A program made the translations under genes and the position numbers. A stretch of DNA of 15,581 nucleotides. Origin: a virus (taxonomy: Duplodnaviria; Heunggongvirae; Uroviricota; Caudoviricetes). The stretch is from IMG/VR virus record IMGVR_UViG_2778261646_000020, one strand, 5' to 3'. The notes beneath the pieces were generated by a model, which was not told where the DNA came from, searched no databases, and worked only from the letters and a program-made list of their open reading frames with translations. The stretch's first letter is position 1; each line of letters begins with the position of its first letter. Below are positions 793 to 15,581 of the stretch, piece after piece.

Positions 793-809
793 TGCCCGGC
801 GTTATTTTA
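781..809 (+). terminator. Rho-independent terminator for the plus-strand gene
   Basis: Perfect 8-bp GC-rich inverted repeat cgccgggc (781-788) / gcccggcg (794-801) with 5-nt loop containing the TGA stop, followed by ttatttta (802-809). It lies between two convergent stop codons (790-792 and 807-809). Confidence 0.5.
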
Positions 810-1262
810 CGGCTGATATTGCCAGCTACTGACTAAAGCGTACAAGTGGTTTGGAGAATAGCGCCAGCTTTCCTTCAGTTGCAGAAATTCAGCACAAAAT
901 TCACTGCAAAACAGGCGATCGCGCTGTTCTTTATTACCGATAATAATTCCTAATGCTCCGCGCCAGTCATATTTTTTGCCATCATGTTTACGGAAAAAAG
1001 TTTCCACATCCTGAAGGCTGGCCTGGAGCGGCAGCATATCCCACTTATCCGCTGGCAACGGCATTATTTTTCCGCGTACACCGCGATCGCGCAGTGATGC
1101 GGAGTAACAAAGGTAACTCTTTTCACCATGCTTAATGGCTAATTCACAGTGGGAATAATGACCACGTGTGATTTTACGGGTAAGCCAGTCAGCCAGTCGG
1201 GCAATACCACGGTGCTCTGTTCGGCCCTTATAACAAGCGAGCCAGACAGTGGTTTTACTCAT
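807..1262 (-). CDS. Hypothetical cargo protein, 151 aa; possible permuted papain-like (NlpC/P60, YiiX/YaeF-type) hydrolase
   Basis: ATG at 1262-1260 overlaps the TGA of the upstream tail fibre assembly gene (ATGA overlap), stop TAA at 809-807. Conserved-looking Cys/His motifs (WLACYKG, HYSHCEL, FCSEFCAEF). Product assignment is weak and from memory. Confidence 0.5.
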   Translation of the reverse strand: MSKTTVWLACYKGRTEHRGIARLADWLTRKITRGHYSHCELAIKHGEKSYLCYSASLRDRGVRGKIMPLPADKWDMLPLQASLQDVETFFRKHDGKKYDWRGALGIIIGNKEQRDRLFCSEFCAEFLQLKESWRYSPNHLYALVSSWQYQP

Positions 1263-1966
1263 GGTTGCCAGCCTGTTGAATAATCGTAGTCGAGCACCGC
1301 CTGAATATCGTCCAGTGCTTCCACCGCCGCGATATGGTGCTGGGCGTTTGCGAACAAGCGCATATCGTGATCCATGGTGACCGATTCAAACTGGGCGGCG
1401 ATTTCGTTGGTTAACTCGATCAGACCATTATTTTTAGTTTTCCACATTAACCCTGGCGGAATTTTTTTCTCCGCTCCCATTTTGGTGAGTGAGAGCTGCT
1501 GGATACGGCTGCTTGTATCACTGTGGAAGTAATGGTTGTTGATGATGATGTAATCGGTTGTGATGGCATCGCGTTGATTTTTGATTGCAGAGTATTTCGC
1601 CTCTTTAGCATCGGTTATAGATGGTTGCCATTTTTCACCATCCCAACGTTCAAAAGAACCTGTCGGGGAAATGACTGTTACATTTTCAGGTAATTGGCCC
1701 AATTCTTGAATAATAAGCTGGCTACCATCAACTTTGTTATAAACAGTTTGGCCTCGATGATCTTCAATAAGTCTCCATGTTTCATTCTCCCACACTGGAG
1801 TAAAACCAGGAGCCTTTTCGGGAGGTGAAATTAATGTGCAATAATTTGGCAAGCCTGTATTAGGTGCAATGTATGCATCAGACTCACCGATATATTCTTG
1901 GGAGTCTTGTGAAAAATTATATACAGTTAGTATTTGAGCTTCATCAGAAAAGGTAAAAGTATTCAT
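1259..1966 (-). CDS. Tail fibre assembly chaperone (Tfa; P2 gpG / Mu U-like)
   Basis: 235 aa. ATG at 1966-1964 overlaps the tail fibre stop (ATGA). C-terminal region ([24 protein letters not shown]) resembles the conserved tail fibre assembly domain. Sits immediately downstream of the fibre gene. Confidence 0.8.
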
Positions 1967-3543
1967 GCTAGCCTCACAATATAGTTGAATGCGATATTTT
2001 TGACGGTGTTTTCGGTGCTGCCGGTATTATTAATGGTTAGGGAGTGGTTATGGGAACCAAGTGCAATTGAATGCGAATGGGTGCCGAGCGCAACAGTGTG
2101 CGAATGGGAACCAATTGTAACACTATGAACGTGTGATGGAACATTAATTGCCAAAGATGATCCGGTACCAGGGCCATATGATGTCCAGTCGCCTTGGCCC
2201 TCTGGTGAAGATGTCCCTGTTCTTACTGTTGCAGTTGCCGAGCCTGAGCCAGATGAACTTGTTGTTTTATTTCCATGGTTAAATGATGATGCAGTTTTAG
2301 TCCCCAAGTCTGTGAGGGGTGTGGTTTTCGTCCCTAAATCAGTACTCGAAATACTGCCCGTATGGTTATGTGATTTAACTCCATCCAGTTCAGTAGATAA
2401 TATAGCGCGCCCACTGGATGGTTTTCCTTTAATTATCCATCCGCGCATATCAGGAATAACACCAGATGGATATGCAATTGCCAGTTTGGGATAGGAGGTT
2501 TTATTAAATGTCTGACCTGTCATCAGAGCGTAGCCTGAAGGTACAGAATCAGATGGCCAGGGAATAGGCATCCCAACAGGACAGCTTTCCGCAGCAATAG
2601 CCTTATCCATCGCTGCCTTAACCGCGTTCGGCGTCGCAGCTTCCGTCGTACTGGTGCTGTTGGTCGCATTATTAAGTTTCACGACCCCTTTTTGTGTCAG
2701 CGTACCGTCGGGGATACCTGTTATTTGCCCCCAGGCATGGGTATGGCTGGACGGCGCCGCAGCAATAGCCTTGTCCATCGCTGCTTTAACCGCACTTGGC
2801 GTTGCAGCTTCCGTTGTACTGGTGCTATTTGTTGTGTTGTTAAGTTTAACGACTCCTTTCTGCGTCAGTGTACCGTCAGGGATACCAGTAATCTGATTCC
2901 AGGCATGAGTATGACTGGTTGCGGCTTTGCTATTTGCCAGGTCATATGCCGTTTTTACCGCTTTTGGCGTGGCTGCTTTAGTCTCATCATCGCTATTAGT
3001 TGCATTACTGAGCTGCGTAAAACCTTTTTGTGTCAGCGTCGCATCAGGATGATTTCGTGATTGCTGATGTGTTTTCAACGCGTCATCGACATATTCCCTG
3101 GTTGCCACAACGACTGAAGGGTCGATCAAAAGCGTCACCGCGTCTGCATTGGTGACTTCCATGACCGCGCGTATAACGATTTGCTTACTGGCCCCCGCAG
3201 GTAATCGTGGCTTATAGGTTTCCGGGAATTTACCAATAGCGACCAGCGTGCCGTCGGTATCCAGTAACCCAACTTCGCGTACATACCAGCCTCCGACTTG
3301 TTCGGGAATAATCGCTTCTGCGATAACCCAGGCCGGATTATCTGGCGCAATTTTTAATGTATTGAGCTGACCACGCCAGACCTCATGGACTACTTTGGTC
3401 TGACTTTCTGTCGGTTCGATATATTTACCATTACCGTCGCCAACTACCATAGTTTGCAGACGGATCTGTTTTTGCTCGGCCAGTGCTGAGGCAATTTTGG
3501 CTTTGCCTGCAGCAGTTAATATTGTAAAAAATTCACTTGCCAT
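1963..3543 (-). CDS. Tail fibre protein, mosaic (P2 gpH-like N-terminus, fibre repeats, collar domain, His-rich tip)
   Basis: Start taken at ATG 3543-3541 ([16 protein letters not shown]...), with GGAG 5 nt upstream; the longer ORF to 3666 has no start codon at that position. N-terminus resembles the baseplate-attachment domain of P2 H-type fibres. Internal ~55-aa tandem repeats ([25 protein letters not shown]...). Collar-like motif [20 protein letters not shown]...YPKL...[12 protein letters not shown]-terminal HxH repeats ([32 protein letters not shown]). Confidence 0.85.
2584..3042 (-). repeat. Tandem ~165-bp direct repeats (about 2.7 copies, diverging) inside the tail fibre gene
   Basis: Seen directly at DNA level: 2586-2750 and 2751-2915 align over most of their length, with a more divergent partial third copy to about 3042. 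Encodes the repeated fibre motif ATPxAVKxAxDxA...HTHAW. It also generates the spurious plus-strand ORFs 2654..2896 and 2692..3060. Confidence 0.8.
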
Positions 3544-3545
3544 TA

Positions 3546-4262
3546 TTACTCCGGATATACAGACATAATTTCGGTGCTCCAGTATCCTGTGCCGACCTTC
3601 ATCGGTTGGGATTGTGTAAGGCGATCGGGTTGATAAGGTAGTAGTTGGATATATTCCTCCACACAATAACCCGTCGCTAAAAATATTCCTGATGACTGGC
3701 TGAGGCTTTCTGCAACAGGAGGCAATACTGTAATGACTTCCCCTCCTTGCATGGCGCTGCCAATAACTGGTATTGGGCTTCGATTAATAAGCCAAATAAC
3801 AATGCTTTCCAGCTTTGAACGAACATTTTTATATTCATGAATTAATGTGATAAGTGCATTGAATTCATCTTCATTTAATCCTTTTTCCTCTAGTGTAATA
3901 TTTACCTTAAAAAAATAAGCCTTCCCCCCATATTCAAACCATTCTGAAATAGTTCCGGGTAAGGAAAGTATTTCCAGCACCCGCCGTACCGCCCAAATCG
4001 TTCCTTTATATTTATGCAGCTCAATGGCTTGCTTAATTAACTCGCGCTTCTCCCGCTCATCGGTGGTAAATAACCAACCTTCCAGCCCCTGAACGTGAAA
4101 TTGTTCTGCAAGGGCTGGTAATGCCGAAGCATCAACCAGGTCGACCAGATAAACCATCAACGCCGTCAGATCGAGTTGGGCAAAACGCTCGGCGGCGATG
4201 TTTGCCAGAATCGAAAAACGCTCATCGCTGGCAAGCGGCGGCGGTGGCAGCAATTTATCCAT
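3546..4262 (-). CDS. Baseplate protein, P2 gpI-like (tail protein I family)
   Basis: Start taken at ATG 4262-4260 ([16 protein letters not shown]...), which overlaps the gpJ-like stop by 8 nt; the track ORF begins at a TTG at 4277. Stop TAA 3548-3546, 2 nt before the fibre start. N-terminal LLPP motif and position between J-like and fibre genes match gpI. Confidence 0.75.
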
Positions 4263-5370
4263 CGCTGACTCCGGCAATCGTGACGTCTATTGCAGTGCAT
4301 TCCGCCCATTCATGCGCCTGCAAAATACGTTTTGTAGGCATATTCAGCGCAACGTCATAGACGCCATCGACCTGTAACACTTTGATTATCTGGTTTGGCA
4401 CAATGTCCTGCCCCAGATGTTTCTGCCGCTGTTGCGTCCAGAGGCTAATCGCTTTACGCGCCGCAGCCAGCGTTGTCTCCTGATCGGCGGTGGTAAACAG
4501 CGTTAGCTGAGCACGGATCTCATACGGCACTCGAAGAGCGCATTTCGCACTCACTTTGTCGGTTAGCGGTCGTTTTTTCTCCTTGCTAACCTCCTGTTCG
4601 ATTTGCGCGAGCAGTTCTATTCCTGGCAGTCCGTTCAGGGTTAGCGGGTAGATCTCCACGCAGCCTTCTGGCAATCCCTCGTCCGGCCCCAGTACTGCAA
4701 CGTCAATAATCGACTGGCTAACAGAAAGCGTATGAAAGCGGTATGCGCCATAGCTGCCCGCATTACTAAAGCTTTCTGGTGCCAGTTGGATACGCTGGCG
4801 CAATGCGTCATCGCTCTCTTCACCGCAGCCGCCCGTTGACGCAGTCAGGTTGGTTACGTTGATGTCATAATGACCAATCCTGTCGACCAGTGCGCTAATT
4901 TGTGCAGGCTGCCAGCCGTTGCCCTGTTCACCTGCTGCGAGGCTGGTGGCAGGAACGGCGATATGCAAACTCCTGGCCGGAAGCAGAACATCTTCATCGG
5001 TGGCGAACATCACGCTATCAGAGGCACTGGCCCGCGTCCCCTGGGGAATCAGGATATTGCTGGTATACGCACTGACGACCGAAAACTGCAACGTCGTTTT
5101 TGCCGGTTGTGCAGGCAAACGGTGAACGCCCACCAGCTCCCCTAAATAATCCAGCATTGGCGCGCGGGAATACGCGACCAGGTTCTGTTTCGCCGCTTCC
5201 TGAATGGCGATGCGTACAAGGTTTTCACGATAGGCAAACAGGTCGATGAGCAACCGCTCAGCCTGTGCCGGATAGAGTTTTTTACCGCTGGCATCTTCAT
5301 ATTGCGCAATCATCTCACTGGTAATTTGCGCAGGATCGCGGTCAATAAAATTGGGTTCGGCTATCGCCAT
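4255..5370 (-). CDS. Baseplate assembly protein, P2 gpJ-like (T4 gp6-like wedge)
   Basis: 371 aa. ATG 5370-5368 with strong GGAGG Shine-Dalgarno upstream. Size and position between W-like and I-like genes are typical of the Baseplate_J family. Confidence 0.8.
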   Translation of the reverse strand: MAIAEPNFIDRDPAQITSEMIAQYEDASGKKLYPAQAERLLIDLFAYRENLVRIAIQEAAKQNLVAYSRAPMLDYLGELVGVHRLPAQPAKTTLQFSVVSAYTSNILIPQGTRASASDSVMFATDEDVLLPARSLHIAVPATSLAAGEQGNGWQPAQISALVDRIGHYDINVTNLTASTGGCGEESDDALRQRIQLAPESFSNAGSYGAYRFHTLSVSQSIIDVAVLGPDEGLPEGCVEIYPLTLNGLPGIELLAQIEQEVSKEKKRPLTDKVSAKCALRVPYEIRAQLTLFTTADQETTLAAARKAISLWTQQRQKHLGQDIVPNQIIKVLQVDGVYDVALNMPTKRILQAHEWAECTAIDVTIAGVSDG

Positions 5371-5720
5371 AACACCTCCGTTGAGTTGATAACGCCGTCA
5401 GCGGCGCGCCATTGCACACGTAACGTCAGATGTTCACCGTCGATTACTGGTGTCACCTTCAGCAACCGACAGCGCGGTTCCCACTGGCGGATGGCTTCCA
5501 CCGACTCCCGTACCACATGCGGGATTGCCCGCTCGATGGGGTAATCGATGTAGTGCCACAAGTTGCTGCCAAACAGCGGTCTGTGAGGATCACTGCCGCG
5601 CGGTGTGCGCAGAATGATGTGTATCGCCTGGTGAATATCATCCAGCCCGCAGACGTATTCTTCAGGCCGCTGCAAGGCCGGTTGCCAGTGCAGCGTTGAG
5701 GGGCGTGTTTTTGTGTTCAT
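5361..5720 (-). CDS. Baseplate wedge protein, P2 gpW / T4 gp25-like
   Basis: 119 aa. ATG 5720-5718; 3' end overlaps the gpJ-like start by 10 nt. Size and position are typical of gpW/gp25 family proteins. Confidence 0.75.
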   Translation of the reverse strand: MNTKTRPSTLHWQPALQRPEEYVCGLDDIHQAIHIILRTPRGSDPHRPLFGSNLWHYIDYPIERAIPHVVRESVEAIRQWEPRCRLLKVTPVIDGEHLTLRVQWRAADGVINSTEVLWR

Positions 5721-5780
5721 GAGGGTATTTTCGCCCTGAACGGGCTGTGGAGATATTAAAGCGATTTAGAAAACTGATTG

Positions 5781-5813
5781 ATTAAAAAGAGAAAACCCGC
5801 CATCAGGCGGGTT
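5781..5813 (-). terminator. Intrinsic terminator-like hairpin between the V-like and W-like genes
   Basis: 8-bp stem aacccgcc (5794-5801) / ggcgggtt (5806-5813), 4-nt loop, starting 5 nt after the gpV-like stop. On the transcribed minus strand it is followed by TTCTCTTTTTAAT. Confidence 0.4.
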
Positions 5814-5818
5814 AAAAG

Positions 5819-6520
5819 TCAGTGTGAATGGTGGTTGGAGTTGCCACCGCTGTCCTGCAATGCGCCGCTGGCCTGAACGTTGCCGATCACGTTGACATTG
5901 CCGGTTATCGTGGCTGCGTTACCGATGCCTCCACTTCCTGCCATCCCGCCAAGCCAGGTGAGTTTTTTCATTACCGTGACGTTGCCAGTAAAGGTGCTCA
6001 TGGGCGCATCTACCGTCACTGCTGCTGCTTTAACCTCGACCTTAGTGGCGTCGATGCTGACATCGGTCGCTTTAACATCGACGGTATCGGAAGTCACGGT
6101 GACCTGTTGGGCTTTAATCTCAACGTTGGGCGATGTCAGGCAGGTACCGTTGATAACCTCAATCACGATTTTCTCGATACCGCCGTTGATCGTCAGCTGG
6201 TGCGTGCTGCGGTCATATTCAAACGCTGCGCCATCAGAAAACTGGACGTAACGTTTGTCGCGCGAGGCTACAGGCGCGGTGTCAACCGTAGAATAAACTG
6301 CGCCCAGCACCACGCCATCTTCACCGTTATTGTCCAGCAGAACTTCCACTTGCTCGCCCATATCCGGTAGCCAGTAGTCTTTATTGTCCTGGGAATTGCG
6401 TTGAAGTACCGCAAGCCAGTTGCTCTTCAGATTGTCACACTCCGGGAGCGTGACCCGCACCCGAACGCTGGTTTCGTCAATATCGCTGATAATCCCCGTT
6501 TGACGGGTTACTCCTTTCAT
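5819..6520 (-). CDS. Baseplate spike, P2 gpV-like (T4 gp5-like), with C-terminal beta-helix-like region and His-rich tip
   Basis: 233 aa. ATG 6520-6518 with GGAGGA 9 nt downstream of the gpD-like stop. C-terminal half is rich in V/T/G repeats (VTVTSDTVDVKATDVSIDATKVEVKAAAVTVDA) and ends ...SGGNSNHHSH. Confidence 0.75.
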   Translation of the reverse strand: MKGVTRQTGIISDIDETSVRVRVTLPECDNLKSNWLAVLQRNSQDNKDYWLPDMGEQVEVLLDNNGEDGVVLGAVYSTVDTAPVASRDKRYVQFSDGAAFEYDRSTHQLTINGGIEKIVIEVINGTCLTSPNVEIKAQQVTVTSDTVDVKATDVSIDATKVEVKAAAVTVDAPMSTFTGNVTVMKKLTWLGGMAGSGGIGNAATITGNVNVIGNVQASGALQDSGGNSNHHSH

Positions 6521-6529
6521 ATTTCCTCC

Positions 6530-7570
6530 TTACTGGCTGGTCGCTGGCCCGCGCGACACGTCGATTTCAGTGGTATAGCCGCTGCGCACAAAACTGTGAG
6601 TCGATTTATCAATTAGCCATTGACCGGAAAGCACGCCAAAATCGGTTAGCTCGATTTTATTGCCCGCCGTCAGTTCCGGGCAGCCCATCATTGTGAGCGT
6701 TCCGGTTTGCTGATATTCGTTGTGGCTGTCGAGTGCAGCGTTGGCTTTTGCCTGTGCTGCGCCAACGTCCGTCGCCCGACTGTTCAGTTTTAGCGTGTCG
6801 GCACTGGTGCCGACTCCACGGGCAGACGGTTTTTGCTGGCTGTCGTGGGTGTAGATAACCAGTTCTTTTTTCTTACTATTTTGATGCTGTACGGTGGCGT
6901 TTTTGTAGATACGGTTAATGGTATCTTTGAAGGTGAAATGCGAAACGTCTTTGCGGTCGATCTTTTTCACAGGTGCCAGGCAGCGCAGCGTGGGTAAATG
7001 TGAAAAAATCAGCTCTTTCGTCGTCACTTTTACGGCATAACCATATTCACTGGCCAGACGTTTGAGAAATCCAACATCGGTTTCGCCGTACTGTGTCACC
7101 CGGTCAATTGTCAGAGGCTCGATTTTGCCCACCAGCTTTAGGCCGTGAGTTTGTGCGATACGGCTGGCGATAGCCGAAAGCGTCGTTTCTTCAAAGCCCT
7201 GGCTGTTACGGGTGCGCAGCGCCTGATTGACGGAAGTGGCGATGCCATCAATATTTACCGTAGAAGGTGGCGCTGAAATATCAATTTTATCAATAATATA
7301 CTGACCACAATCGAGCAGCTTTTCTCCCTGATAACCCATATGCAGCGCCAGCGTATCGCCTTTGCCGGGATACCACTCTTTTATCCAGCGTCCATCTGTG
7401 TCATCCAGTGTAATTGCGATGGTATCCGACTCGTTTTTGATGCTGTCGTGGTAACTGATGCTGGTGACATAGGGTGTGATGTCATAAGTGATATCTTTAT
7501 GCCCATACCAGAGGGTAAAAATGGGCGTGAGTGTGGCAAAGACGCCACCAGTTACGCTTATCTCAGCCAT
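6530..7570 (-). CDS. Baseplate hub protein, P2 gpD / Mu P-like (late control D family; T4 gp27 / VgrG N-terminus-like)
   Basis: 346 aa. ATG 7570-7568 with GGAG upstream. Size and position between X-like and V-like genes fit the phage gpD family. Confidence 0.75.
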   Translation of the reverse strand: MAEISVTGGVFATLTPIFTLWYGHKDITYDITPYVTSISYHDSIKNESDTIAITLDDTDGRWIKEWYPGKGDTLALHMGYQGEKLLDCGQYIIDKIDISAPPSTVNIDGIATSVNQALRTRNSQGFEETTLSAIASRIAQTHGLKLVGKIEPLTIDRVTQYGETDVGFLKRLASEYGYAVKVTTKELIFSHLPTLRCLAPVKKIDRKDVSHFTFKDTINRIYKNATVQHQNSKKKELVIYTHDSQQKPSARGVGTSADTLKLNSRATDVGAAQAKANAALDSHNEYQQTGTLTMMGCPELTAGNKIELTDFGVLSGQWLIDKSTHSFVRSGYTTEIDVSRGPATSQ

Positions 7571-7770
7571 GGTGGGATCTCCGATAAGGTTTTATTAACG
7601 GAAATGACCGGAATAATGAGCTGAATACCGGAAGGCAGTACCGGGTAAATGGCTACATGTGGATTGGCGGCGATTATGCGTTCATAAGCCAGCGCATCAC
7701 CGTAGTAATGCCATGCCAGATTATCCCAGCGTTCGCCGTCGGTGGTGATATGTTCAAGGTATCGCATCAC
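7558..7770 (-). CDS. Tail protein X-like (small LysM-like tail/baseplate protein)
   Basis: 70 aa (69 aa if started at the ATG at 7767-7765 rather than the GTG at 7770-7768). Overlaps the upstream U-like stop and the downstream D-like start. Size and position match gpX. Confidence 0.65.
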   Translation of the reverse strand: MMRYLEHITTDGERWDNLAWHYYGDALAYERIIAANPHVAIYPVLPSGIQLIIPVISVNKTLSEIPPWLR

Positions 7771-8720
7771 CAGATCCTCGTAATGGTCGCGGCAGCAAGC
7801 TGGCTCACTGTGGGAGTGGTTTGTTGTACCGTTGTTCGTGCCTGATCAACCAACGTTGCGGCTTTATCAAACGTCGCTTCGGCGATGTCGCTGGTAATGT
7901 CGTCGAAAAGCGCCTGAGCATGGTCAACCAGTGTACTGGCGTCATTGGCGCAGTCCCGGATACCTGGCATGTTACCCAGTAAAGTTTTAATCTGCGCCGA
8001 CAACGCTTTTGGGAGTCCTGCCAGCGTTTGCAGATCCATTGGCTGTTTAAACAGGGTTTCGATGGCGTCGATTGTCTTTTTCAATGACGTAATTATCTTT
8101 TCACACTTTTCTTTTAACGCTTTGGCCTCTTTAATCATTGCTTTCACTTTTGCCACCGTTTTTTTAATATCTTCAATGGCTTGTGTCAGTTCATCCAGCA
8201 TCTCTTTGGCCTTACGCATACCTTCTTCGATGGCGTTTAATATCTGATCAAACCAGGACTCCACCTTGTCGGGAAAATCGCTCGCCTTTTCCTCGATGTT
8301 GGGCTCCTGGGTGGTAATCGCCGGAGGTAAAAGTGGATTTTTAGGATCGCCGGTGTACTCCTGGAGCGACATCGTTCCGTTTTGGGCAATCACATTGCCC
8401 CAGGGATCGGTGTGCTGGTGGGTGGCGGTTAGCTCCGTAATCACAAACCAGCCGCGATAATCGCCATTGCCAAATACCAGTGCCATCGCCTTGTGAGCAA
8501 GCATGGCTTCACGCAGTCGGTTCAGCTCTGTTGTGGGCTGGCAAAACTGGCTGTGCAGGGAAAATTCCAGCGCCAGCATATCCAGCTTATCGCCAATAAA
8601 CTGCACGCCGGGTTTGCCTTCTATACGGGCATGTGTGGCGTAATCCACGCCCATTGTGCTTTTAAAGCCGTCCCAGAATGTGACAACCTTCAATTCAATC
8701 TCTCCTAAAACGGCATACAT
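7767..8720 (-). CDS. gpU-like tail protein with ~170-aa C-terminal coiled-coil extension (occupies the position of Mu N, the DNA circularization protein)
   Basis: 317 aa. ATG 8720-8718 shares one base with the tape measure TGA. The N-terminal ~140 aa (MYAVLGEIELKVVTFWDG...GKPGVQFIGDKLDMLALEF...FGNGDYRGWFVITEL) resemble the gpU family. The C-terminal half is K/E-rich with heptad-like periodicity (EEGMRKAKEMLDELTQAIEDIKKTVAKVKAMIKEAKALKEKCEKIITSLKKTIDAIETL). Confidence 0.6.
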   Translation of the reverse strand: MYAVLGEIELKVVTFWDGFKSTMGVDYATHARIEGKPGVQFIGDKLDMLALEFSLHSQFCQPTTELNRLREAMLAHKAMALVFGNGDYRGWFVITELTATHQHTDPWGNVIAQNGTMSLQEYTGDPKNPLLPPAITTQEPNIEEKASDFPDKVESWFDQILNAIEEGMRKAKEMLDELTQAIEDIKKTVAKVKAMIKEAKALKEKCEKIITSLKKTIDAIETLFKQPMDLQTLAGLPKALSAQIKTLLGNMPGIRDCANDASTLVDHAQALFDDITSDIAEATFDKAATLVDQARTTVQQTTPTVSQLAAATITRIW

Positions 8721-11095
8721 CAGGCATACCCCCGGCGCTGTTGTTGCGCCATTACGTCGTTAATCATTCTTTCCAGTTCGCGTTTACTCATCGTCAACAC
8801 GTTCTGAATCTCTTTAGTGGTGTTTTGTCCGTTTCCCTGCACGGTAATCTGTGGCGAAAAATTTACCTGGACTTTTCCTGAGGAACGGGAGGGTAGCGTC
8901 GCCGGTTTGGTTACGGATTTACCAGGTAAAGAGGCAGATACGGGTTTGGCGGCTGTATTTTTTGCCGCTGGCGCCGATGACGGCGTAGCCGTTTTGCCGG
9001 ATGGCGCGAGTTGTTTGCCCACCGGCGGCGTTAAAATCGCACCGGCAACGCCTGGAACAACGGTCGCGGGGGAGACGGATGCGGTATTAGTCGTGCTTGT
9101 AATAGCTGTAGCCGATCCTTCTGTACTAATACCCATCGTGGTTTTTAGCCAGTCTGGGATGGCGTTTTTTACCTGATCAATAATGCCTTTCAGAGCGGGG
9201 AAGGCATTCATTATGCCGTCAACCAGACTGCCCAGAAGATTGCTGCCGAACTCGCTAAAACTTGCAGGCATCTCGACACCAAACCAATTCATCACACTGG
9301 AAAAGGCGCTATAGAACAACTCCAGCGGTGACCAGTCGAGAATCAACCGACAAATTCCTGCAATGCCGCCGTCAAAGGCCGTGGTGATACGTTGCCAGAT
9401 GGTCGAAAAGAACCTGGAGATAGGCTCCCAGTTGCGACAAATCAGATAAGCAGCGCCCGCAATCGCAGTGATGACCAGACCAATGGGATTCATCAATAAA
9501 ACCCTACCCAACCAGAAGACGGTCTGACCTACCTGTTTCAGTGCGCCAATCAGGCCATGACCAAGCAGTTGCATTAGCCATTTTGCGCTGCCACCCAATG
9601 ACTTAACCGCTGATAGCATCTTACTTGCCCCGCCTGTGAGCGCCAGACTTGCCTTGACTTTCAGGAAGATATCGACCAGACGAATAAACGGCGAGGTGAT
9701 GAGGTTCGCGCCCAGCTTTAAAACATTCAGCGCGCCGTTAAACAGCCAAACCGCCCCGACGATTTTCGCAATGTTTTGCACCAGCGCCGGATGTTCGCGT
9801 AGCCAGGCGCTGAACTGGCGAATAACCGGCGTAAGGCTTTGTGCCAGCTCGCCAATCGCCGGCATAAGCTGCAAACCAATGCTGAGCCATAAATCATTTA
9901 ATGCCAGCTGTAACGCTTTAGTCTGTTCAATGGGCGAGGCCATTTGCGCAGAAAAGTCAGCGTTAATCAGATTCTTGCTGGTGGCTTGCATGGCAGAGGC
10001 TTTTAACTGGCGATATTCCTCCATATTCGCCAGCATAGGTGCCAGGAATTCCACCGTTTGCGCATCGCCGAACATTTCGCCCAGATTAAATTGCGTTACC
10101 ATCAATTGCAGCGCATTGCTGCGAGCAGATAAATCTTCAATCTGCATAGTGCGTTTGAAGGTGTCGAGGATCGCCGGATTCATCTTCTCAAGCTGCATTT
10201 GTACGATATGAGTCATGGCTTCGCTAACACCCATACCGTTTTGCTGATGTTCAAGCAGAGAGCCTTGCAGATCGACGCCCTGGCTGGCGAACCAGCTATC
10301 GGTTTTTTTCGAAAAGGTGGTTTGCAGAAAGTGGTCGAAATTCTCCGCCGCCGCACTGGCGCTGGCCCCGTTTTTCATGGCGATCTGCATGGTGGCGCTC
10401 AGTTCAGCCATACCTTCCAGACCCTGAGCGCCGGTTTTACCTGCAAATTTCTCTATCCACTGCGTTTGTTCAGCAATGACAGGCCCACCGCTTTTGCTAA
10501 TGCCGTACATCATGTTTTGCGCGGCGTGGAAATTTTCCGGGGCAATATTCAGTCGATCATGGGTTGCGAGCGCGGCATTCGCCCATGTTTCAGCACTTTC
10601 GCGCGTGGCGGTGGCAGCTTTGGCGATCTCCGGCATATAACGGTTGAGATCCTGTATCGACGACAAATTGCCTTCGATCAGCGTTTGGGCTGCGTTCTGT
10701 AAGGTGGTCTGCTGCTGGTTAAAATCCATGCTCCAGTCGCGCAGATTAAGGCTGAGCGTCTCGCGGGTTGTAGCATTCATCCCACCTTTGGTCGCCATAT
10801 TGACCATGTTGTCCTGAAACTCATACGGCAACTTCCAGTCGGGGGCTTCAACATTGAATACTTTGCTAAATTGCCCGGCAAATGTTTGGGTTTTCTCCAT
10901 CAGATTAGCGCGGCTGCGGCTATTTTCCTCCAGGCGGAGAGCGGAATCGGCAAGCTGCTGCGTTAGTTTGATAACTGTCGCCTGCTGAGTAGAGAGAGTT
11001 AACAATGTTCTGGCGTTGAGTGAGCCGTAACGGGCTATTGCCTGCGTCAACGTCTCATTACGCGCCTGAAGCTGGGTAATAATATCGTTGGCCAA
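8720..11095 (-). CDS. Tail tape measure protein
   Basis: 791 aa, the largest ORF, located between chaperone and baseplate genes. Alpha-helical N-terminus, central hydrophobic/Gly-rich segments, Pro/Ser/Thr-rich C-terminus. The annotated start is a TTG at 11095-11093, with an in-frame TAA 4 codons upstream and no ATG or GTG in between, so the exact start is uncertain. Confidence 0.85.
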   Translation of the reverse strand: MANDIITQLQARNETLTQAIARYGSLNARTLLTLSTQQATVIKLTQQLADSALRLEENSRSRANLMEKTQTFAGQFSKVFNVEAPDWKLPYEFQDNMVNMATKGGMNATTRETLSLNLRDWSMDFNQQQTTLQNAAQTLIEGNLSSIQDLNRYMPEIAKAATATRESAETWANAALATHDRLNIAPENFHAAQNMMYGISKSGGPVIAEQTQWIEKFAGKTGAQGLEGMAELSATMQIAMKNGASASAAAENFDHFLQTTFSKKTDSWFASQGVDLQGSLLEHQQNGMGVSEAMTHIVQMQLEKMNPAILDTFKRTMQIEDLSARSNALQLMVTQFNLGEMFGDAQTVEFLAPMLANMEEYRQLKASAMQATSKNLINADFSAQMASPIEQTKALQLALNDLWLSIGLQLMPAIGELAQSLTPVIRQFSAWLREHPALVQNIAKIVGAVWLFNGALNVLKLGANLITSPFIRLVDIFLKVKASLALTGGASKMLSAVKSLGGSAKWLMQLLGHGLIGALKQVGQTVFWLGRVLLMNPIGLVITAIAGAAYLICRNWEPISRFFSTIWQRITTAFDGGIAGICRLILDWSPLELFYSAFSSVMNWFGVEMPASFSEFGSNLLGSLVDGIMNAFPALKGIIDQVKNAIPDWLKTTMGISTEGSATAITSTTNTASVSPATVVPGVAGAILTPPVGKQLAPSGKTATPSSAPAAKNTAAKPVSASLPGKSVTKPATLPSRSSGKVQVNFSPQITVQGNGQNTTKEIQNVLTMSKRELERMINDVMAQQQRRGYA

Positions 11096-11185
11096 AATTG
11101 TTTCTCTTTAAATATTGATAATGGCCCGCTGGTTATTTTTCTAAAAAAAGGGGCAGGGAAGAAATAAACCTGACGGGCTTGGGAA

Positions 11186-11210
11186 ACTCGCAGACATCAG
11201 GTCTGCGAGT
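11186..11210 (-). other. Perfect 10-bp stem-loop between chaperone region and tape measure gene
   Basis: actcgcagac (11186-11195) / gtctgcgagt (11201-11210) with 5-nt loop atcag. Contains the stop codon of the alternate-frame chaperone extension. Not followed by a clear U-tract on the transcribed strand. Confidence 0.5.
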
Positions 11211-11284
11211 CATATTCGATTTTTATTTGGGCGCTGGCTTCATCCAGCCAGTTGCTAAAGTCATCGACGGTAAGGGCGTCTATC

Positions 11285-11602
11285 TCACTGGGTGGAAAGC
11301 GAAACCATCTCGCCAGTAACGCCATCGCTTGCCATAACAGTGGCGGATTCTGTAGCCACGCTAAGCATGGATTGAAATCGTTTCTGCAATGCCTGGTAAT
11401 CCAGCAAATCCATTTCAGCTAAATCTTCTGGCACCAGTCCGGTCATTGCCGCCATTAGCGGTTCATCCCACTCTTCAGGTTTTTCGCTGATCCGGCGCGC
11501 GTTGCGCATATCTTTTACTTTCAGGCGACGTAATTGCAGAGTGTTAATTACGTCTCCCGCCGCTGAAGTAAACGGGAACTGTAAGATATAATGTTCTTTC
11601 AT
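11285..11602 (-). CDS. Tail assembly chaperone, P2 gpE-like
   Basis: 105 aa. ATG 11602-11600 with AAGGA upstream. Motif GLVPEDLAEMDLLDYQALQKRF resembles the conserved core of gpE-family tail assembly proteins. Located between tube and tape measure genes. Confidence 0.75.
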   Translation of the reverse strand: MKEHYILQFPFTSAAGDVINTLQLRRLKVKDMRNARRISEKPEEWDEPLMAAMTGLVPEDLAEMDLLDYQALQKRFQSMLSVATESATVMASDGVTGEMVSLSTQ

Positions 11603-11628
11603 TTTGTGTCCTTATTTATTTTGCAAAG

Positions 11629-11648
11629 TTCGGGGCCGTAGCCCCGAA
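11629..11648 (-). other. GC-rich hairpin between tube and chaperone genes
   Basis: 8-bp stem ttcggggc (11629-11636) / gccccgaa (11641-11648), loop cgta. No U-tract follows on the transcribed strand, so it is not called a terminator. Confidence 0.4.
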
Positions 11649-11652
11649 TAAC

Positions 11653-12177
11653 TTAGCCACCGATGTTATTGCGATAGGTACTTAATTGATCCACACCATT
11701 AACCCGGAAAATATTGGCCATATAATCAAGTTCAAGCAGCGTTTCACCATCAACTACTTGTTTAATATAAGTGCAACCAAAGGCGCTGCTGAATTCCGGG
11801 TTTTCATTCTGTTTAAATGTGCCCAGTGGATTCTTTTTAAACATCACGGTTAAATGTGTCACTAGCGCTAATTGATTCGCTTTCCCCTGGGAGTTATAGC
11901 AATCAATACTGGAGCGGCACTGTAATGCAACCGCCTGCCACGGGTTTGCCGTTTTACGCATTACGTCCTGATAGAAGGAGTTCCATTTAATTTCGCCCTC
12001 CAGTTTATCGAAACCCGCCGGGAGTTCGATTTTACCCACCATGCCCAGTGCTTTATGCTCCTGCATAATTAAACTGACATCCGGCAATTTAATTTCGGTT
12101 GCACGACCTAAAAGGTTATTACCATCGAGATAAATATTGGCGTTGGTAATACGGTTAATTTGAATTTTTCCAGCCAT
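11653..12177 (-). CDS. Tail tube protein (P2 FII / Mu M-like)
   Basis: 174 aa. ATG 12177-12175 shares one base with the sheath stop. Size and position immediately downstream of the sheath gene; N-terminus MAGKIQINRITNANIYLDGNNLLG is typical of contractile-tail tube proteins. Confidence 0.85.
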   Translation of the reverse strand: MAGKIQINRITNANIYLDGNNLLGRATEIKLPDVSLIMQEHKALGMVGKIELPAGFDKLEGEIKWNSFYQDVMRKTANPWQAVALQCRSSIDCYNSQGKANQLALVTHLTVMFKKNPLGTFKQNENPEFSSAFGCTYIKQVVDGETLLELDYMANIFRVNGVDQLSTYRNNIGG

Positions 12178-13579
12178 TAGCTATTGCTCTCCAGAGAGAC
12201 TAAATATTCAGAAGTAATTTCAGTTTCAAACGTCAGACGTTCCAGCGGCGGCGGCGGGGTGAATTTATAGCTCAGCAATAAATGCCCAGCGCTGAGTTCA
12301 GTCGGTGAATTTCGCGCCGGATCGTACCAGCATTCAAAGCCAAGCAGTGCGCCGTCGGCAATCAGCTTACGGCCCCAGGTATTTACCGATTCGGTCAGGG
12401 CATCAATCAGCGCCTGATTAATCGGCATATCAATATACTGCTGACTGAAATAACGGATTGACTCATTAATTACATCGCCTGTCCGGCGGACGTTTTCAAA
12501 GTTACGCATATGGGTCACGGTAGGCCACGCTGCAGTGCGGTTGCCCCACAAGCGCAGACCAGAGCCGTAACTATTGAAAATAGTGGTAATGCCGTTTTCG
12601 TTTAGCTGATTCACTTCGCTTTGTGGATCATCAATCATTGCGGAAAGCGAACGTTCAATACCGGTAATACCCTGAATTTCTTGGTTTGAGTTGCTCCACC
12701 AGAAACCTTTTTCGAGGTCTACTTTGGCACGTAGCCCGGCAGCGCGCGAAGAGAGCGGTTCGAGAACTTCTTGGTTAGTGATGCCATCGTAAACTTTGAC
12801 GTGTGGGTAACATAAACGCGCACGATCAGAGCTGGTGTTGAAGTTGATAGCCCCTTGCGAACCGCGTCCTGCCAATACCTGCTGGAATGTCGTCCCAATC
12901 GGGGCATCAATGTAGGTAATCGCACCAAGTTTTTCCGCTTGTGCAATCAGCTCTGTAGTTACTGATTTTTGCGTACAGAACACGGGAGCAAGCAGGATTT
13001 TGGCGTAGAAACCATACAGGTTATAGGTGTCCTGTAGCAGTTTCATCCCCGTGCGATCGCCTGCGGTATTAACGGCACCGATAATATCGGCTGCGGTGAC
13101 CTTTGTAGGGTCGCACCAGGAGGAATGTCGGCTCCTGTACGGGTAATTATGCCTGTTTGTTCATCTACGCTAAATGCTGCGGTGTTATAGGTTGATGAAT
13201 TTGATGAAGAGGGCTTTAGAACCACGTTACGCACATTGCGGTGAGTGAGTTTCGCCTGGTTGTTAGCATCAAAAGTGATACTTTCATTGCTGATGTTGGA
13301 GCCATGTTTTGCCGGATCCAGCACGTTAATCACCACCACCGTACCGGCACCGTGGTCATAAATCGCCTTCAGTGCCTGTGGGATCGTAAAGTTAGTCTGA
13401 GTCGAACCAAACTGCGCAGCATCGCTTTCAGAAAGGCATAATGTTGGTTTATTTACCGGACCACAGGGGGCCGTACCGATTAAAGCGATGACGGCGGATT
13501 TTACCGCTTTAACCGGACGCGGGCCGGTTTCAATTTCAATGGTTTCTACACCGTGCAGATAATTAGCTGCCATGTACAA
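12177..13579 (-). pseudogene. Tail sheath gene interrupted by a frameshift (two ORF fragments 13043..13579 and 12177..13046)
   Basis: N-terminal fragment (MYMAANYLHGVETIEIETGPRPVKAVKSAVIALIG...) matches the sheath N-terminus. The downstream frame, read upstream of its first Met, gives ...KVTAADIIGAVNTAGDRTGMKLLQDTYNLYGFY..., which continues the sheath. The two frames meet near 13105-13125, consistent with a 1-nt deletion (or 2-nt insertion) relative to an intact gene. Confidence 0.75.
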
Positions 13580-13760
13580 TTTCCTCTCCGTTATTTTGTT
13601 CTTCCTGAGTGATGACAGGAGTCAGATGATTGCGGGCAATCATGGTCATGACCCACTCGTTGTCTTCTGGCAGATCAATTTCACTGTTCGGCCACAATAA
13701 GATTTCTTGTCCGTCGGCAAGGGTGACGCCGCTTGCCGGGCCGTTGTAGATGTATTTCAT
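13563..13760 (-). CDS. Small conserved tail-module protein, 65 aa (position of Mu gp38; function unknown)
   Basis: ATG 13760-13758 overlaps the upstream stop (ATGA); 3' end overlaps the sheath start. Assignment is by position and size only. Confidence 0.5.
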   Translation of the reverse strand: MKYIYNGPASGVTLADGQEILLWPNSEIDLPEDNEWVMTMIARNHLTPVITQEEQNNGEEIVHGS

Positions 13761-14212
13761 TCAGTTTCCTCGTAATTAACTTCAGTAAGCAGGGTAAGGT
13801 CCGTGCTTTCCCGTTTCGCGATAAACAGCGAGCTGGTCGCCATTTCCAGGATGTAGCGGCAGAAACCGCCGCTCTCACCTGTATTAATTTCTTTTTCAAG
13901 CCAAAGCAGACGATCGCAATCAGGAAGCTGAAGGCCACCCAATGCGCTGCGTATGTGATCAAGTGCGTTTAACGCGTCACAATTTTTGCCAACAATAACG
14001 GTGGCGGTTAAGCGAAGTATTTGCTGTTGCACGATGGCATCACTGCTTTCGGGCGTGGTAAAGACAGAACCGCTATAATTAACAATCACCGCAACTTGTT
14101 GTGTCTGTGGAATATATTTCTGGGCATCCGTAGATGAAATAAATACGTCCATTTCGGGGTTGTGCTCACGTAATCTTGTCACGACACAATTCATTACAGA
14201 TAAAATTTCCAT
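13757..14212 (-). CDS. Putative tail completion / sheath-proximal protein, 151 aa (position of Mu gp37 or P2 R/S)
   Basis: ATG 14212-14210 with AAGG upstream. First gene after the terminator and intergenic region, translationally coupled to the next gene. Assignment is by position and size. Confidence 0.45.
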   Translation of the reverse strand: MEILSVMNCVVTRLREHNPEMDVFISSTDAQKYIPQTQQVAVIVNYSGSVFTTPESSDAIVQQQILRLTATVIVGKNCDALNALDHIRSALGGLQLPDCDRLLWLEKEINTGESGGFCRYILEMATSSLFIAKRESTDLTLLTEVNYEETE

Positions 14213-14261
14213 ATAGGCTGTACCTTAATTACCGCTCACTTCGTTATCGTTGAGATATATT

Positions 14262-14281
14262 CTGAAGCAGTGAAGGTGAAG
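14262..14281 (-). promoter_or_regulatory. Three closely spaced TGAAG repeats (CTTCA on the transcribed strand) in the lysis-tail intergenic region; candidate regulator site or late promoter region
   Basis: Plus strand TGAAGcagTGAAGgTGAAG at 14263-14281, lying between the terminator hairpin (14328-14354) and the first tail gene start (14212). No convincing sigma-70 -35/-10 pair was found. Confidence 0.3.
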
Positions 14282-14320
14282 AATCTTTTAATGTGATTTA
14301 GAGAAAAAATTGAATGGCTA

Positions 14321-14354
14321 TAAAAAATCCCCACACTTACGTAAAGGTGGGGAT
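14321..14354 (-). terminator. Rho-independent terminator after the lysis-like cassette
   Basis: 7-bp stem tccccac (14328-14334) / gtgggga (14348-14354) with a loop containing the palindrome ttacgtaa, beginning 4 nt after the stop at 14361-14359. On the transcribed strand it is followed by TTTTTTA (14327-14321). Confidence 0.6.
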
Positions 14355-14358
14355 GTAT

Positions 14359-14673
14359 TTAATAACTGCCACGTTGTAATAGCTCGATTTTGCTATATAA
14401 GGCATCCAGCTTTGCTTCTAATACTGCTTGCCCACGAAGATAATCTTCTCTGCGGACATAATGCAGCGGAAGCTCGGCACGAAATTCAAGAAACTCTCTT
14501 TCCAGTTTCGACCAACTTGTTTCTGATTCCCTGCGGGCATTTTCCAGAGACTCAAAACGCTCATTAAGTCGTTTTTCAATTTGTGCTAACAGCAGTTTTC
14601 CGGCAGCAAACATTAATCCAACGAAGGAAAGCATAAGGGAGATCACTTCCCAAAAATCGATACTGAGTTTCAT
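14359..14673 (-). CDS. Membrane-anchored coiled-coil protein, 104 aa; i-spanin-like
   Basis: ATG 14673-14671 with GAGGGG upstream, 12 nt after the transglycosylase stop. N-terminal hydrophobic segment (VISLMLSFVGLMFAAGKLLLA) followed by a charged helical region (EKRLNERFESLENARRESE...). Confidence 0.55.
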   Translation of the reverse strand: MKLSIDFWEVISLMLSFVGLMFAAGKLLLAQIEKRLNERFESLENARRESETSWSKLEREFLEFRAELPLHYVRREDYLRGQAVLEAKLDALYSKIELLQRGSY

Positions 14674-14685
14674 CGGCCCCTCTGA

Positions 14686-15291
14686 TTAATGAAGACAGCT
14701 TGCCTGTCCCCAGAGTAAATAGCGGGCGGCATGTTGATAGAGGATCATCTTTGGATAGCGACGATTTTCTCGCCAGTTCGTGGCGCTGCGCCCGGCGTTG
14801 ACTTGCTCAACATGACCAAACCAGCTAGTGGCATCTAACCCTTTGGATGCAGCCAGTTTTTTATCCCGGTTAACCCACCCCTGACCGCCGTTATAGGCGC
14901 TTAGGGTAAACGCCATACGCTGACAATCATTTTTCGCAGAGATGTTTTTCCACAAATGCTGGTCATATTGCACCAGCGCGCGAATCGCCCAGGTTGGGTT
15001 ATACGGTTTGTTTTCACGCAATTGTGGATACAACTGGCTTATCCATGTCGCTGTAGCAGGCATAAATTGCGCCATACCTTGTGCGCCAACGGGGGAACGT
15101 ACCATTGGCTGCCAGGCGGACTCCTGGTGTAATTGCCCGGCAAAGTCGGCCACTGGAGCATTCAGCCCCCAGACTTCTCGAGCTGTACGAATTAGTTCGT
15201 TTCGCCATGCCAGAGAGGCTCGCGGCGGTTCAGAGGCGTTAAGCGGGAAAAGAACGAAAATAATCATAGACGCGATATATTTCAGCCACAT
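14686..15291 (-). CDS. SLT-domain lytic transglycosylase with N-terminal signal peptide (endolysin-like)
   Basis: Start taken at ATG 15291-15289 (MWLKYIASMIIFVLFPLNA...), 2 nt after the upstream stop; the longer ORF from 15369 overlaps the upstream gene. Contains a catalytic-type Glu-Ser (LHQESAWQP) and the AQGMAQFMPATA motif characteristic of the soluble lytic transglycosylase fold. Confidence 0.8.
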   Translation of the reverse strand: MWLKYIASMIIFVLFPLNASEPPRASLAWRNELIRTAREVWGLNAPVADFAGQLHQESAWQPMVRSPVGAQGMAQFMPATATWISQLYPQLRENKPYNPTWAIRALVQYDQHLWKNISAKNDCQRMAFTLSAYNGGQGWVNRDKKLAASKGLDATSWFGHVEQVNAGRSATNWRENRRYPKMILYQHAARYLLWGQASCLH

Positions 15292-15293
15292 CA

Positions 15294-15581
15294 CTATAGC
15301 CCTAAGGCGACGGAAAGACAGACGGCGGCAACGATGATGGCGCGGCGAATCATTGCCGCCGCGCAGCAACGAGGTTCCTTCCAGGGGCTAAAAGAGTCAG
15401 GCCGTGCCCAGGGGAACAAACTGCGATCGAGCCAGTATCCCAGCACCGCGGAAAGCGAAACCAGGCTTAGTTTATAAATGACGACCGGGATCTGTGCGGA
15501 AGAGGTCCAGCCGATCACGACAAACAGCGCGGCGGAATCGACTAGCCAGCCGGAAAGCCGGGGAAAAGTGACTTTTTTCAT
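15294..15581 (-). CDS. Small membrane protein, 95 aa; possible holin
   Basis: ATG is the last three bases of the window (15581-15579), so the start is at the edge and a longer N-terminus cannot be excluded. Two to three hydrophobic segments; lies immediately upstream of, and is translationally coupled to, the lytic transglycosylase. The hydrophobic C-terminus is atypical for classical holins. Confidence 0.4.
   Translation of the reverse strand: MKKVTFPRLSGWLVDSAALFVVIGWTSSAQIPVVIYKLSLVSLSAVLGYWLDRSLFPWARPDSFSPWKEPRCCAAAMIRRAIIVAAVCLSVALGL

What the first reader, a model, noticed from the sequence alone, without database searches (positions are those of the whole stretch)
13043..13150. Tail sheath gene is split by a frameshift
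The sheath is encoded in two overlapping frames. The first stops at 13045-13043, but the second frame is open upstream of its first Met and encodes ...KVTAADIIGAVNTAGDRTG..., which continues the sheath. The frames meet around 13105-13125, consistent with a single-base deletion. If real, the element cannot make a normal sheath, indicating a decaying prophage or tailocin; if it is an assembly error, the element may be intact. Either outcome changes the interpretation of the whole locus.
Basis: seen in the sequence. Interest (0 to 1): 0.6.

Follow-up and report, generated by a model that had tools for sequence, protein, structure and literature searches.

The report
Tail sheath gene broken by 28-bp deletion
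The tail sheath gene of a headless, phage-derived tail cluster in an E. coli chromosome is broken by a real 28-base deletion between two 11-base direct repeats; it is an ordinary loss-of-function mutation, and the only unusual point is that the same deletion arose at least twice.

Summary
On the minus strand the sheath is split into a 176-aa ORF (13573-13043) and a 289-aa ORF (13046-12177) in different frames. The cause is not a single-base deletion. The window matches E. coli N32/CE10/IAI39 almost exactly (1-2 SNPs in 15.6 kb) but lacks 28 bp, nt 453-480 of the intact 1425-nt, 474-codon gene. The missing segment lies between two exact 11-bp direct repeats (TCCTGGTGCGA); the surviving copy is at 13111-13121. 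This is the signature of replication slippage.

An assembly error is unlikely. The same allele is in GCA_002513485.1 and in at least three other sequencing runs, including one on a haplotype 2.1% divergent, so it recurred. It is rare: 0 of 196 complete genomes that carry the locus have it, and intact proteins were seen on more than 1,200 contigs.

The deletion leaves no correctly translated copy of residues 155-185, which contain the most conserved sheath block, so a normal sheath cannot be made.

The locus is a BcepMu-type tail-plus-lysis cluster with no head genes, sited next to lysC as in Salmonella STM4200-4219. The intact sheath gene is under purifying selection. This is an ordinary recent pseudogene and of low interest.

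The parts
13043..13573 (-). 5' sheath fragment (ORF A, 176 aa from the ATG; an in-frame TTG lies at 13579). It has 154 native residues, then 22 out-of-frame residues (TLQRSPQPILSVPLIPQAIARG) and TGA at 13045-13043.
   Evidence: This exact protein is found on 5-6 public contigs.
13111..13121 (-). The surviving copy of the 11-bp direct repeat TCCTGGTGCGA, which is the deletion junction. In intact genomes a second copy lies 28 bp away; one copy plus the 17-bp spacer (AAGTTTGCGCCTATTAT) is missing here.
   Evidence: Alignment to IAI39 and GF130. Deletion mapped to nt 453-480 of the intact CDS. It is the joint-longest (with one other 11-bp repeat) and the closest-spaced direct repeat in the intact 15.6-kb locus.
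13046..13111 (-). The stretch read out of frame after the junction (22 missense codons). In the other frame, 13047-13121 still encodes native residues 161-185 (SWCDPTKVTAADIIGAVNTAGDRTG), but no start codon gives access to that frame.
12177..13046 (-). 3' sheath fragment (ORF B, 289 aa, equal to residues 186-474 of the intact protein). Its ATG overlaps the TGA of ORF A (ATGA).
807..15581 (-). Context: the headless BcepMu-type tail and lysis cluster. Gene order: holin 15294-15581; SLT transglycosylase 14686-15291; membrane protein 14359-14673; Gp37 13757-14212; gp38-like 13563-13760; sheath; tube 11653-12177; tail assembly chaperone 11285-11602; tape measure 8720-11095; gpU-like 7767-8720; X 7558-7767; D 6530-7570; V 5819-6520; W 5361-5720; J 4255-5370; I 3546-4262; fibre 1963-3543; DUF4376 1259-1966; hypothetical 807-1262.
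   Evidence: RefSeq annotation of the near-identical CE10 and N32 loci. Pfam families on called genes. Comparison with the BcepMu gene order.

Best explanation
A spontaneous 28-bp deletion inactivated the tail sheath gene of a domesticated, headless BcepMu-like tail cluster. The deletion arose by slipped-strand mispairing between two exact 11-bp direct repeats (TCCTGGTGCGA) spaced 28 bp apart.

Slippage removed one repeat and the 17-bp spacer. Because 28 = 27 + 1, the reading frame shifts after Ala154. Translation runs through 22 wrong codons and stops at TGA 13045-13043.

Residues 155-185 are never made correctly. They include ADPTKVTAADIIG..AG.RTG, the most conserved block of this sheath family. 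The 289-aa C-terminal part could be made only by re-initiation at the overlapping ATGA (inferred, not shown). In that case the N-terminal and C-terminal parts would be on separate polypeptides, so a contractile sheath should not assemble and any tail-like particle would be inert.

The lesion is real, recent and rare. It is inherited in a small clade of the IAI39/CE10/N32 lineage, and it arose independently in an MRY15-117-like lineage because the repeat pair favours slippage.
For: 1. Nature of the lesion. The window equals N32, CE10 and IAI39 over 15,581 bp except for 1-2 SNPs and a 28-bp gap. The gap is flanked by an exact 11-bp repeat.

2. Direction of the change. Salmonella STM4213, phages KP12 and PhiKM, and BcepMu gp39 (70-82% aa identity) all keep the segment, so it is a deletion here and not an insertion elsewhere.

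3. The site favours slippage. The repeat pair is the joint-longest and the closest-spaced direct repeat in the intact locus.

4. It is real and inherited.
- GCA_002513485.1 (NLXL01000037.1) is 100% identical to the window over 13,405 bp, deletion included.
- ERR4920143 has the deletion but carries the ancestral G at 10104 and a different SNP at 6301.
- SRR24045179 has the deletion with 9 other SNPs.

5. It recurred. SRR32281254 differs from MRY15-117 by one SNP over 20.9 kb, apart from the same 28-bp deletion. That haplotype differs from the window at 275 sites over 13.4 kb.

6. It is rare.
- No complete genome showed the junction allele: all 21 on the window's haplotype were listed and carry the extra 28 bp, and 189 of the 196 with the locus were checked intact at the site.
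- Intact proteins were seen on 709 + 495 contigs, against 5 + 1 for the frameshifted products.
- The junction 30-mer is absent from GTDB representative genomes and JGI metagenomes.

7. Loss of function is plausible.
- The Pfam Phage_sheath_1 match starts at residue 182, upstream of ORF B's Met186.
- The alignment to the R2 pyocin sheath PA0622 (3j9q, E 3e-45) starts at residue 167, inside the lost block.
- The intact gene is under purifying selection: dN/dS 0.13 within E. coli and 0.08 against Salmonella.
Against: - No read-level data were available, so mixed populations within a sample cannot be excluded.
- I could not check whether the contigs grouped with GCA_002513485.1 are re-assemblies of the same runs.
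- No experiment shows that the intact cluster makes particles, or that the two fragments cannot complement each other.
- Transfer of the deletion between haplotypes by a very short gene-conversion tract is not strictly excluded. It would have to be under about 90 bp, between the haplotype-specific SNPs at nt 437 and 526.
Confidence: 0.9

Rival explanations
1. Assembly or sequencing artefact: the genome really has the intact 474-codon gene, and the 28 bp were lost in silico.
For: None of the complete E. coli genomes checked shows the deletion. The allele is known only from draft or short-read assemblies.
Against: An 11-bp repeat is shorter than any usual assembly k-mer, so it cannot collapse a de Bruijn graph; the junction k-mers must be in the reads (inference from how assemblers work). 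The same junction appears in at least four separate data sets with different linked SNPs and on two haplotypes. More than 1,200 other contigs assemble the intact allele, so the loss is not systematic. Typical sequencing errors are homopolymer indels, not a 28-bp loss bounded by a repeat.
Confidence: 0.04
2. A functional split or recoded sheath: a programmed frameshift, or two polypeptides that still assemble.
For: The stop of ORF A overlaps the start of ORF B (ATGA). That could allow coupled translation of the C-terminal 289 aa, which keeps both main Pfam sheath domains.
Against: All relatives, from E. coli to Burkholderia phage BcepMu, encode one uninterrupted protein of 474-477 aa. The split arises from a deletion that leaves residues 155-185 untranslated in their correct frame; these hold the best-conserved block. 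No frameshift could restore the missing 28 bases. The allele is very rare.
Confidence: 0.02
3. One deletion event spread between lineages by recombination, rather than recurrent slippage.
For: E. coli recombines, and SRR24045179 shows a patch of 9 SNPs just downstream of the deletion on an otherwise IAI39-like sequence.
Against: In SRR32281254 the haplotype-specific SNPs at nt 437 (16 nt upstream) and nt 526 (46 nt downstream) are both of the MRY15-117 type. The whole 20.9 kb matches MRY15-117 apart from one SNP. An imported tract would have to be under 90 bp.
Confidence: 0.1

Closest known systems
Spontaneous deletions between short direct repeats (slipped-strand mispairing, as described for lacI by Albertini et al. 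1982; from my own knowledge)
   Same: One repeat copy plus the spacer is lost exactly. The end points are an exact 11-bp repeat 28 bp apart. The same deletion recurs independently.
   Different: Nothing differs in kind. Here it hits a phage-derived structural gene in natural isolates.
Tail sheath of Burkholderia phage BcepMu (gp39) and relatives: Escherichia phage PhiKM, Klebsiella phage KP12, Salmonella STM4213
   Same: The intact E. coli allele is 70-82% identical in protein and collinear over its whole length. The neighbouring genes follow the BcepMu order from gp37 to the tail fibre.
   Different: The window's copy lacks 28 bp and is split. The E. coli cluster has no packaging or head module (BcepMu gp26-gp36), no transposase and no repressor.
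R-type pyocin (R2) sheath PA0622 and R-type tailocin clusters
   Same: This is the closest solved structure (3j9q, E 3e-45). The locus has the tailocin layout: a regulator (Mor), a lysis cassette and a complete contractile tail module, with no head genes, at a fixed chromosomal site.
   Different: The ancestry is BcepMu/Mu-like, not P2-like. About 80 extra residues (85-166) lie between the N-terminal part and the conserved domains. No particle production or killing has been shown for this cluster, and I found no paper on it. In this window the sheath is broken.

Membership tests
Contractile tail sheath protein (Pfam Phage_sheath_1 / Phage_sheath_1C; P2 FI / BcepMu gp39 type) | Sequence match to the sheath domains above the curated thresholds | tested here: met
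   Intact allele: PF04984 107.9 bits (cut-off 31.4) and PF17482 65.2 bits (cut-off 26.9). ORF B alone: 104.2 and 66.5 bits. R2 pyocin sheath, E 2.9e-45.
Contractile tail sheath protein (Pfam Phage_sheath_1 / Phage_sheath_1C; P2 FI / BcepMu gp39 type) | A single uninterrupted polypeptide that carries both the N-terminal region and the C-terminal domains | tested here: not met
   In the window the gene is split into 176-aa and 289-aa ORFs by a 28-bp deletion. It is a pseudogene of this family.
Contractile tail sheath protein (Pfam Phage_sheath_1 / Phage_sheath_1C; P2 FI / BcepMu gp39 type) | The gene lies immediately upstream of the tail tube gene within a tail module | tested here: met
   The tube gene (PF04985) is at 11653-12177, directly downstream. 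The assembly chaperone, tape measure and baseplate genes follow.
R-type tailocin (phage tail-like bacteriocin) cluster | A complete contractile tail module with no capsid, packaging, replication or integration genes | tested here: met
   The annotation between yjbD/slipin/NTase and Mor-lysC holds only lysis and tail genes. The BcepMu head module, gp26-gp36, is absent. In this window, however, the sheath is defective.
R-type tailocin (phage tail-like bacteriocin) cluster | Own lysis cassette and regulator | tested here: met
   A holin (PF13272), an SLT transglycosylase and a membrane protein lie upstream, and a divergent Mor-family activator lies next to lysC. No Rz/Rz1 spanin pair was identified.
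R-type tailocin (phage tail-like bacteriocin) cluster | Production of tail-like particles that kill related strains | not testable with these tools
   This needs induction, electron microscopy and spot assays. No report was found for this cluster.
Slippage (direct-repeat) deletion | The deleted segment equals one repeat copy plus the spacer, bounded by exact short direct repeats in the ancestral sequence | tested here: met
   two TCCTGGTGCGA copies 28 bp apart in IAI39, GF130 and MRY15-117, and one copy in the window.
Programmed ribosomal frameshift | The two-frame arrangement is conserved among homologues | tested here: not met
   All homologues have a single ORF.

The most novel reading that the evidence does not exclude
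The 11-bp repeat pair in the sheath gene could be a recurrent, irreversible off-switch for a still-functional BcepMu-derived tailocin shared by E. coli and Salmonella at the lysC locus. Loss of the sheath would then be repeatedly selected in some niches, not merely tolerated. That would also imply that this uncharacterised cluster is an active weapon in the roughly 3.6% of E. coli that carry it.
Probability: 0.08. Interest if true: 0.45.

Novelty: already known. Interest (0 to 1): 0.15.

Why it matters
The result settles how to read the locus. The strain has a headless phage-tail cluster that is complete except for one recent, real, inactivating deletion in the sheath gene, so it should be annotated as a sheath pseudogene and the cluster predicted non-functional. 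It also shows that a frameshift seen by eye need not be a 1-bp indel. Beyond that it is a textbook slippage deletion in accessory DNA. The recurrence on two haplotypes is of minor interest. The uncharacterised tail cluster is more interesting than the lesion itself.

Tried and rejected
- Insertion or duplication in the other genomes instead of a deletion here: rejected, because distant homologues keep the segment.
- Deletion allele in complete E. coli genomes: none found. Seven of the 196 genomes are too divergent around the site for megablast and were not resolved individually.
- Junction 30-mer in GTDB species representatives and JGI metagenomes: no hits.
- Other split alleles returned by the 289-aa look-up. 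L010 is a scaffold gap (a run of N). L011, L013 and L014 are contig-end truncations of intact sequence. L012 (ERR12103629) has a messy local change near nt 438-442 (+1 base) in a 2.9-kb contig, and I do not trust it as a real lesion.
- Literature on this cluster as a tailocin: nothing found. The published ST131 'tailocin' is a different, P2-like full prophage. The Salmonella STM42xx papers use these genes only as markers or screen hits.
- Structure prediction: not run. The intact protein is not encoded in the window, and the PDB and Pfam alignments already place the lost segment.

Full report
**1. The observation**

The sheath gene is on the minus strand.
- ORF A runs from 13579 (TTG) or 13573 (ATG) to a TGA at 13045-13043.
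- ORF B runs from the ATG at 13046 to 12177 (289 aa). The two overlap as ATGA.
- The ORF B frame is open upstream of its Met and reads ...SSWCDPTKVTAADIIGAVNTAGDRTGMKLLQ. ORF A ends ...GADIPPGATLQRSPQPILSVPLIPQAIARG*.
- ORF A gives a below-threshold match to Gp18_domIII_N. ORF B gives strong matches to Phage_sheath_1 and Phage_sheath_1C.

**2. What the lesion is**

Megablast of the sheath region against 5,426 complete E. coli genomes found 196 with the locus. In every row listed, the match spans 1,431 bases of the record for 1,403 bases of query, in two pieces. Over the whole window, N32, CE10 and IAI39 span 15,609 bases for 15,581.

Direct alignment shows the window lacks 28 bp:
- IAI39: ...GACATTCC TCCTGGTGCGA AAGTTTGCGCCTATTAT TCCTGGTGCGA CCCTAC...
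- Window: ...GACATTCC TCCTGGTGCGA CCCTAC...

One copy of an exact 11-bp direct repeat and the 17-bp spacer are gone. That is nt 453-480 of the intact 1,425-nt CDS (474 codons, WP_000729840.1). The surviving copy lies at window 13111-13121. Because 28 = 27 + 1, the frame shifts after Ala154, and 22 missense codons and a stop follow.

Outside the deletion the window differs from N32 by one base: position 10104, which gives S331L in the tape measure protein.

**3. Deletion here, not insertion elsewhere**

Salmonella STM4213, Klebsiella phage KP12, Escherichia phage PhiKM and Burkholderia phage BcepMu gp39 are 70-82% identical in protein to the intact allele. All are collinear through this region. 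They conserve the block ADPTKVTAADIIGxVNxAGxRTGMK, which the window can no longer translate in frame.

**4. Real mutation or artefact**

Exact look-up of the 176-aa frameshifted product found it on six contigs.
- NCBI GCA_002513485.1 (NLXL01000037.1) is 100% identical to the window over 13,405 bp, so it is the likely source or a clone-mate.
- Logan ERR4920143 carries the deletion but has the ancestral G at 10104 and a private SNP at 6301. The deletion therefore predates these SNPs and is inherited within a small clade.
- SRR24045179 carries it with nine other SNPs.
- SRR32281254 carries the same 28-bp deletion on a different haplotype. Over 20.9 kb it matches MRY15-117 except for one SNP and the deletion, and it differs from the window at 275 of 13,405 sites. 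The haplotype-specific SNPs 16 nt upstream and 46 nt downstream of the junction are of the MRY15-117 type. Independent recurrence is far more likely than transfer.

An 11-bp repeat cannot collapse in k-mer assembly (inference). More than 1,200 contigs assemble the intact allele: 709 + 495, against 5 + 1 for the truncated products. I put the artefact explanation at about 4%.

**5. Mechanism**

In the intact 15.6-kb locus this repeat pair is the joint-longest (11 bp) and the closest-spaced (28 bp) exact direct repeat. The repeat itself is not statistically unusual: an exact repeat of 11 bp or more within 100 bp occurred in 18.5% of shuffles. Loss of exactly one repeat plus the spacer, and its recurrence, are the classic marks of slipped-strand mispairing during replication (established knowledge; Albertini et al. 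1982, from memory).

**6. Consequence**

Shown:
- Residues 155-185 have no correctly translated copy.
- The Pfam sheath-domain match begins at residue 182, upstream of ORF B's Met186.
- The alignment to the R2 pyocin sheath (3j9q, E 3e-45) begins at residue 167, within the lost block.

Inferred:
- ORF B might be translated by termination and re-initiation at the ATGA. The only Shine-Dalgarno-like bases, GGGG, abut the ATG.
- Even then, the N- and C-terminal parts would be on separate chains. In R-pyocin sheaths both ends contribute the inter-subunit links (my knowledge of Ge et al. 2015). Sheath polymerisation and contraction should fail.

The intact gene is under purifying selection: dN/dS is 0.13 within E. 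coli and 0.08 against Salmonella. The lesion is therefore a recent loss, not a late stage of long decay.

**7. The locus**

In CE10, IAI39, N32 and MRY15-117 the cluster sits between yjbD-slipin-NTase and Mor-lysC. The gene order is: holin, SLT transglycosylase, a small membrane protein, Gp37, a gp38-like ORF, sheath, tube, assembly chaperone, tape measure, gpU-like, X, D, V, W, J, I, fibre, DUF4376, and a hypothetical gene.

Compared with BcepMu, the packaging and head genes gp26-gp36 and all transposition and regulatory genes are missing, while the order from gp37 to the fibre is kept. Salmonella has the same arrangement at the same lysC-Mor site (STM4200-4219), with a gtr operon inserted.

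This is the layout of an R-type tailocin, but no functional evidence exists. I found no paper on it. The ST131 'tailocin' of PMC9205054 is a different, P2-like prophage.

The tail cluster occurs in about 196 of 5,426 complete genomes. The other roughly 1,440 hits to the window match only the NTase gene at 1-811.

**8. Verdict**

The split is real, and its cause is a 28-bp slippage deletion. The allele is rare, inherited and recurrent. This is an ordinary pseudogene in accessory, phage-derived DNA. Interest is low (0.15) and the kind is already known.

Noticed in passing
window 807-15581 (whole cluster); L003, L004, L018: The locus is a headless BcepMu-type tail plus lysis cluster with a divergent Mor activator. 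It sits at the same lysC-adjacent site in E. coli and Salmonella (STM4200-4219). The sheath dN/dS is 0.08 between the genera. It looks like an old, domesticated tailocin candidate, and I found no functional study of it.
   Followed up: partly
L003 27916-29805 (CE10); L009 1-437 (the window's assembly), just beyond window 15581: In the IAI39/CE10 lineage an ISL3-family ISEc53 element plus a ClbS/DfsB gene (about 1.9 kb) is inserted 306 bp upstream of the holin, inside the 537-bp Mor-holin intergenic region. The GCA_002513485.1 contig ends inside this IS, so the window's strain has the insertion too. It may affect Mor-dependent expression of the cluster.
   Followed up: partly
L003 20720-23095 (CE10); L004 14296-15543 (MRY15-117): Other lineages carry different single lesions in the same cluster. 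CE10 has a nonsense codon (Q75*) in the tape measure gene, and MRY15-117 has a fragmented tail fibre gene. Sporadic inactivation hits different genes in different strains.
   Followed up: partly
window 10104: This is the only base substitution between the window and N32, CE10 and ERR4920143. It is a non-synonymous change (S331L) in the tape measure protein.
   Followed up: yes
window 11197-11602 (-): The tail assembly chaperone gene (PF10109, 11285-11602) is overlapped at its 3' end by a 42-aa ORF in another frame (11197-11325). This is the position of the usual programmed frameshift product (BcepMu gp42/gp43; P2 E/E+E'). No slippery site was looked for.
   Followed up: no
window 1-792 (+) and upstream in L003 10868-11995: A nucleotidyltransferase-domain gene follows a slipin (SPFH) family gene. 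The pair is not part of the tail cluster, and the NTase gene is present at 91-94% identity in about 1,440 further E. coli genomes. Its function was not examined.
   Followed up: no
L012 1640-1650 (Logan ERR12103629): A different apparent lesion lies about 12 nt upstream of the repeat: GTACAGGAGCCGAC becomes GTACGAAGGCCCGAC (+1 base). It also splits the sheath in a 2.9-kb contig. It could be an assembly or sequencing error.
   Followed up: partly
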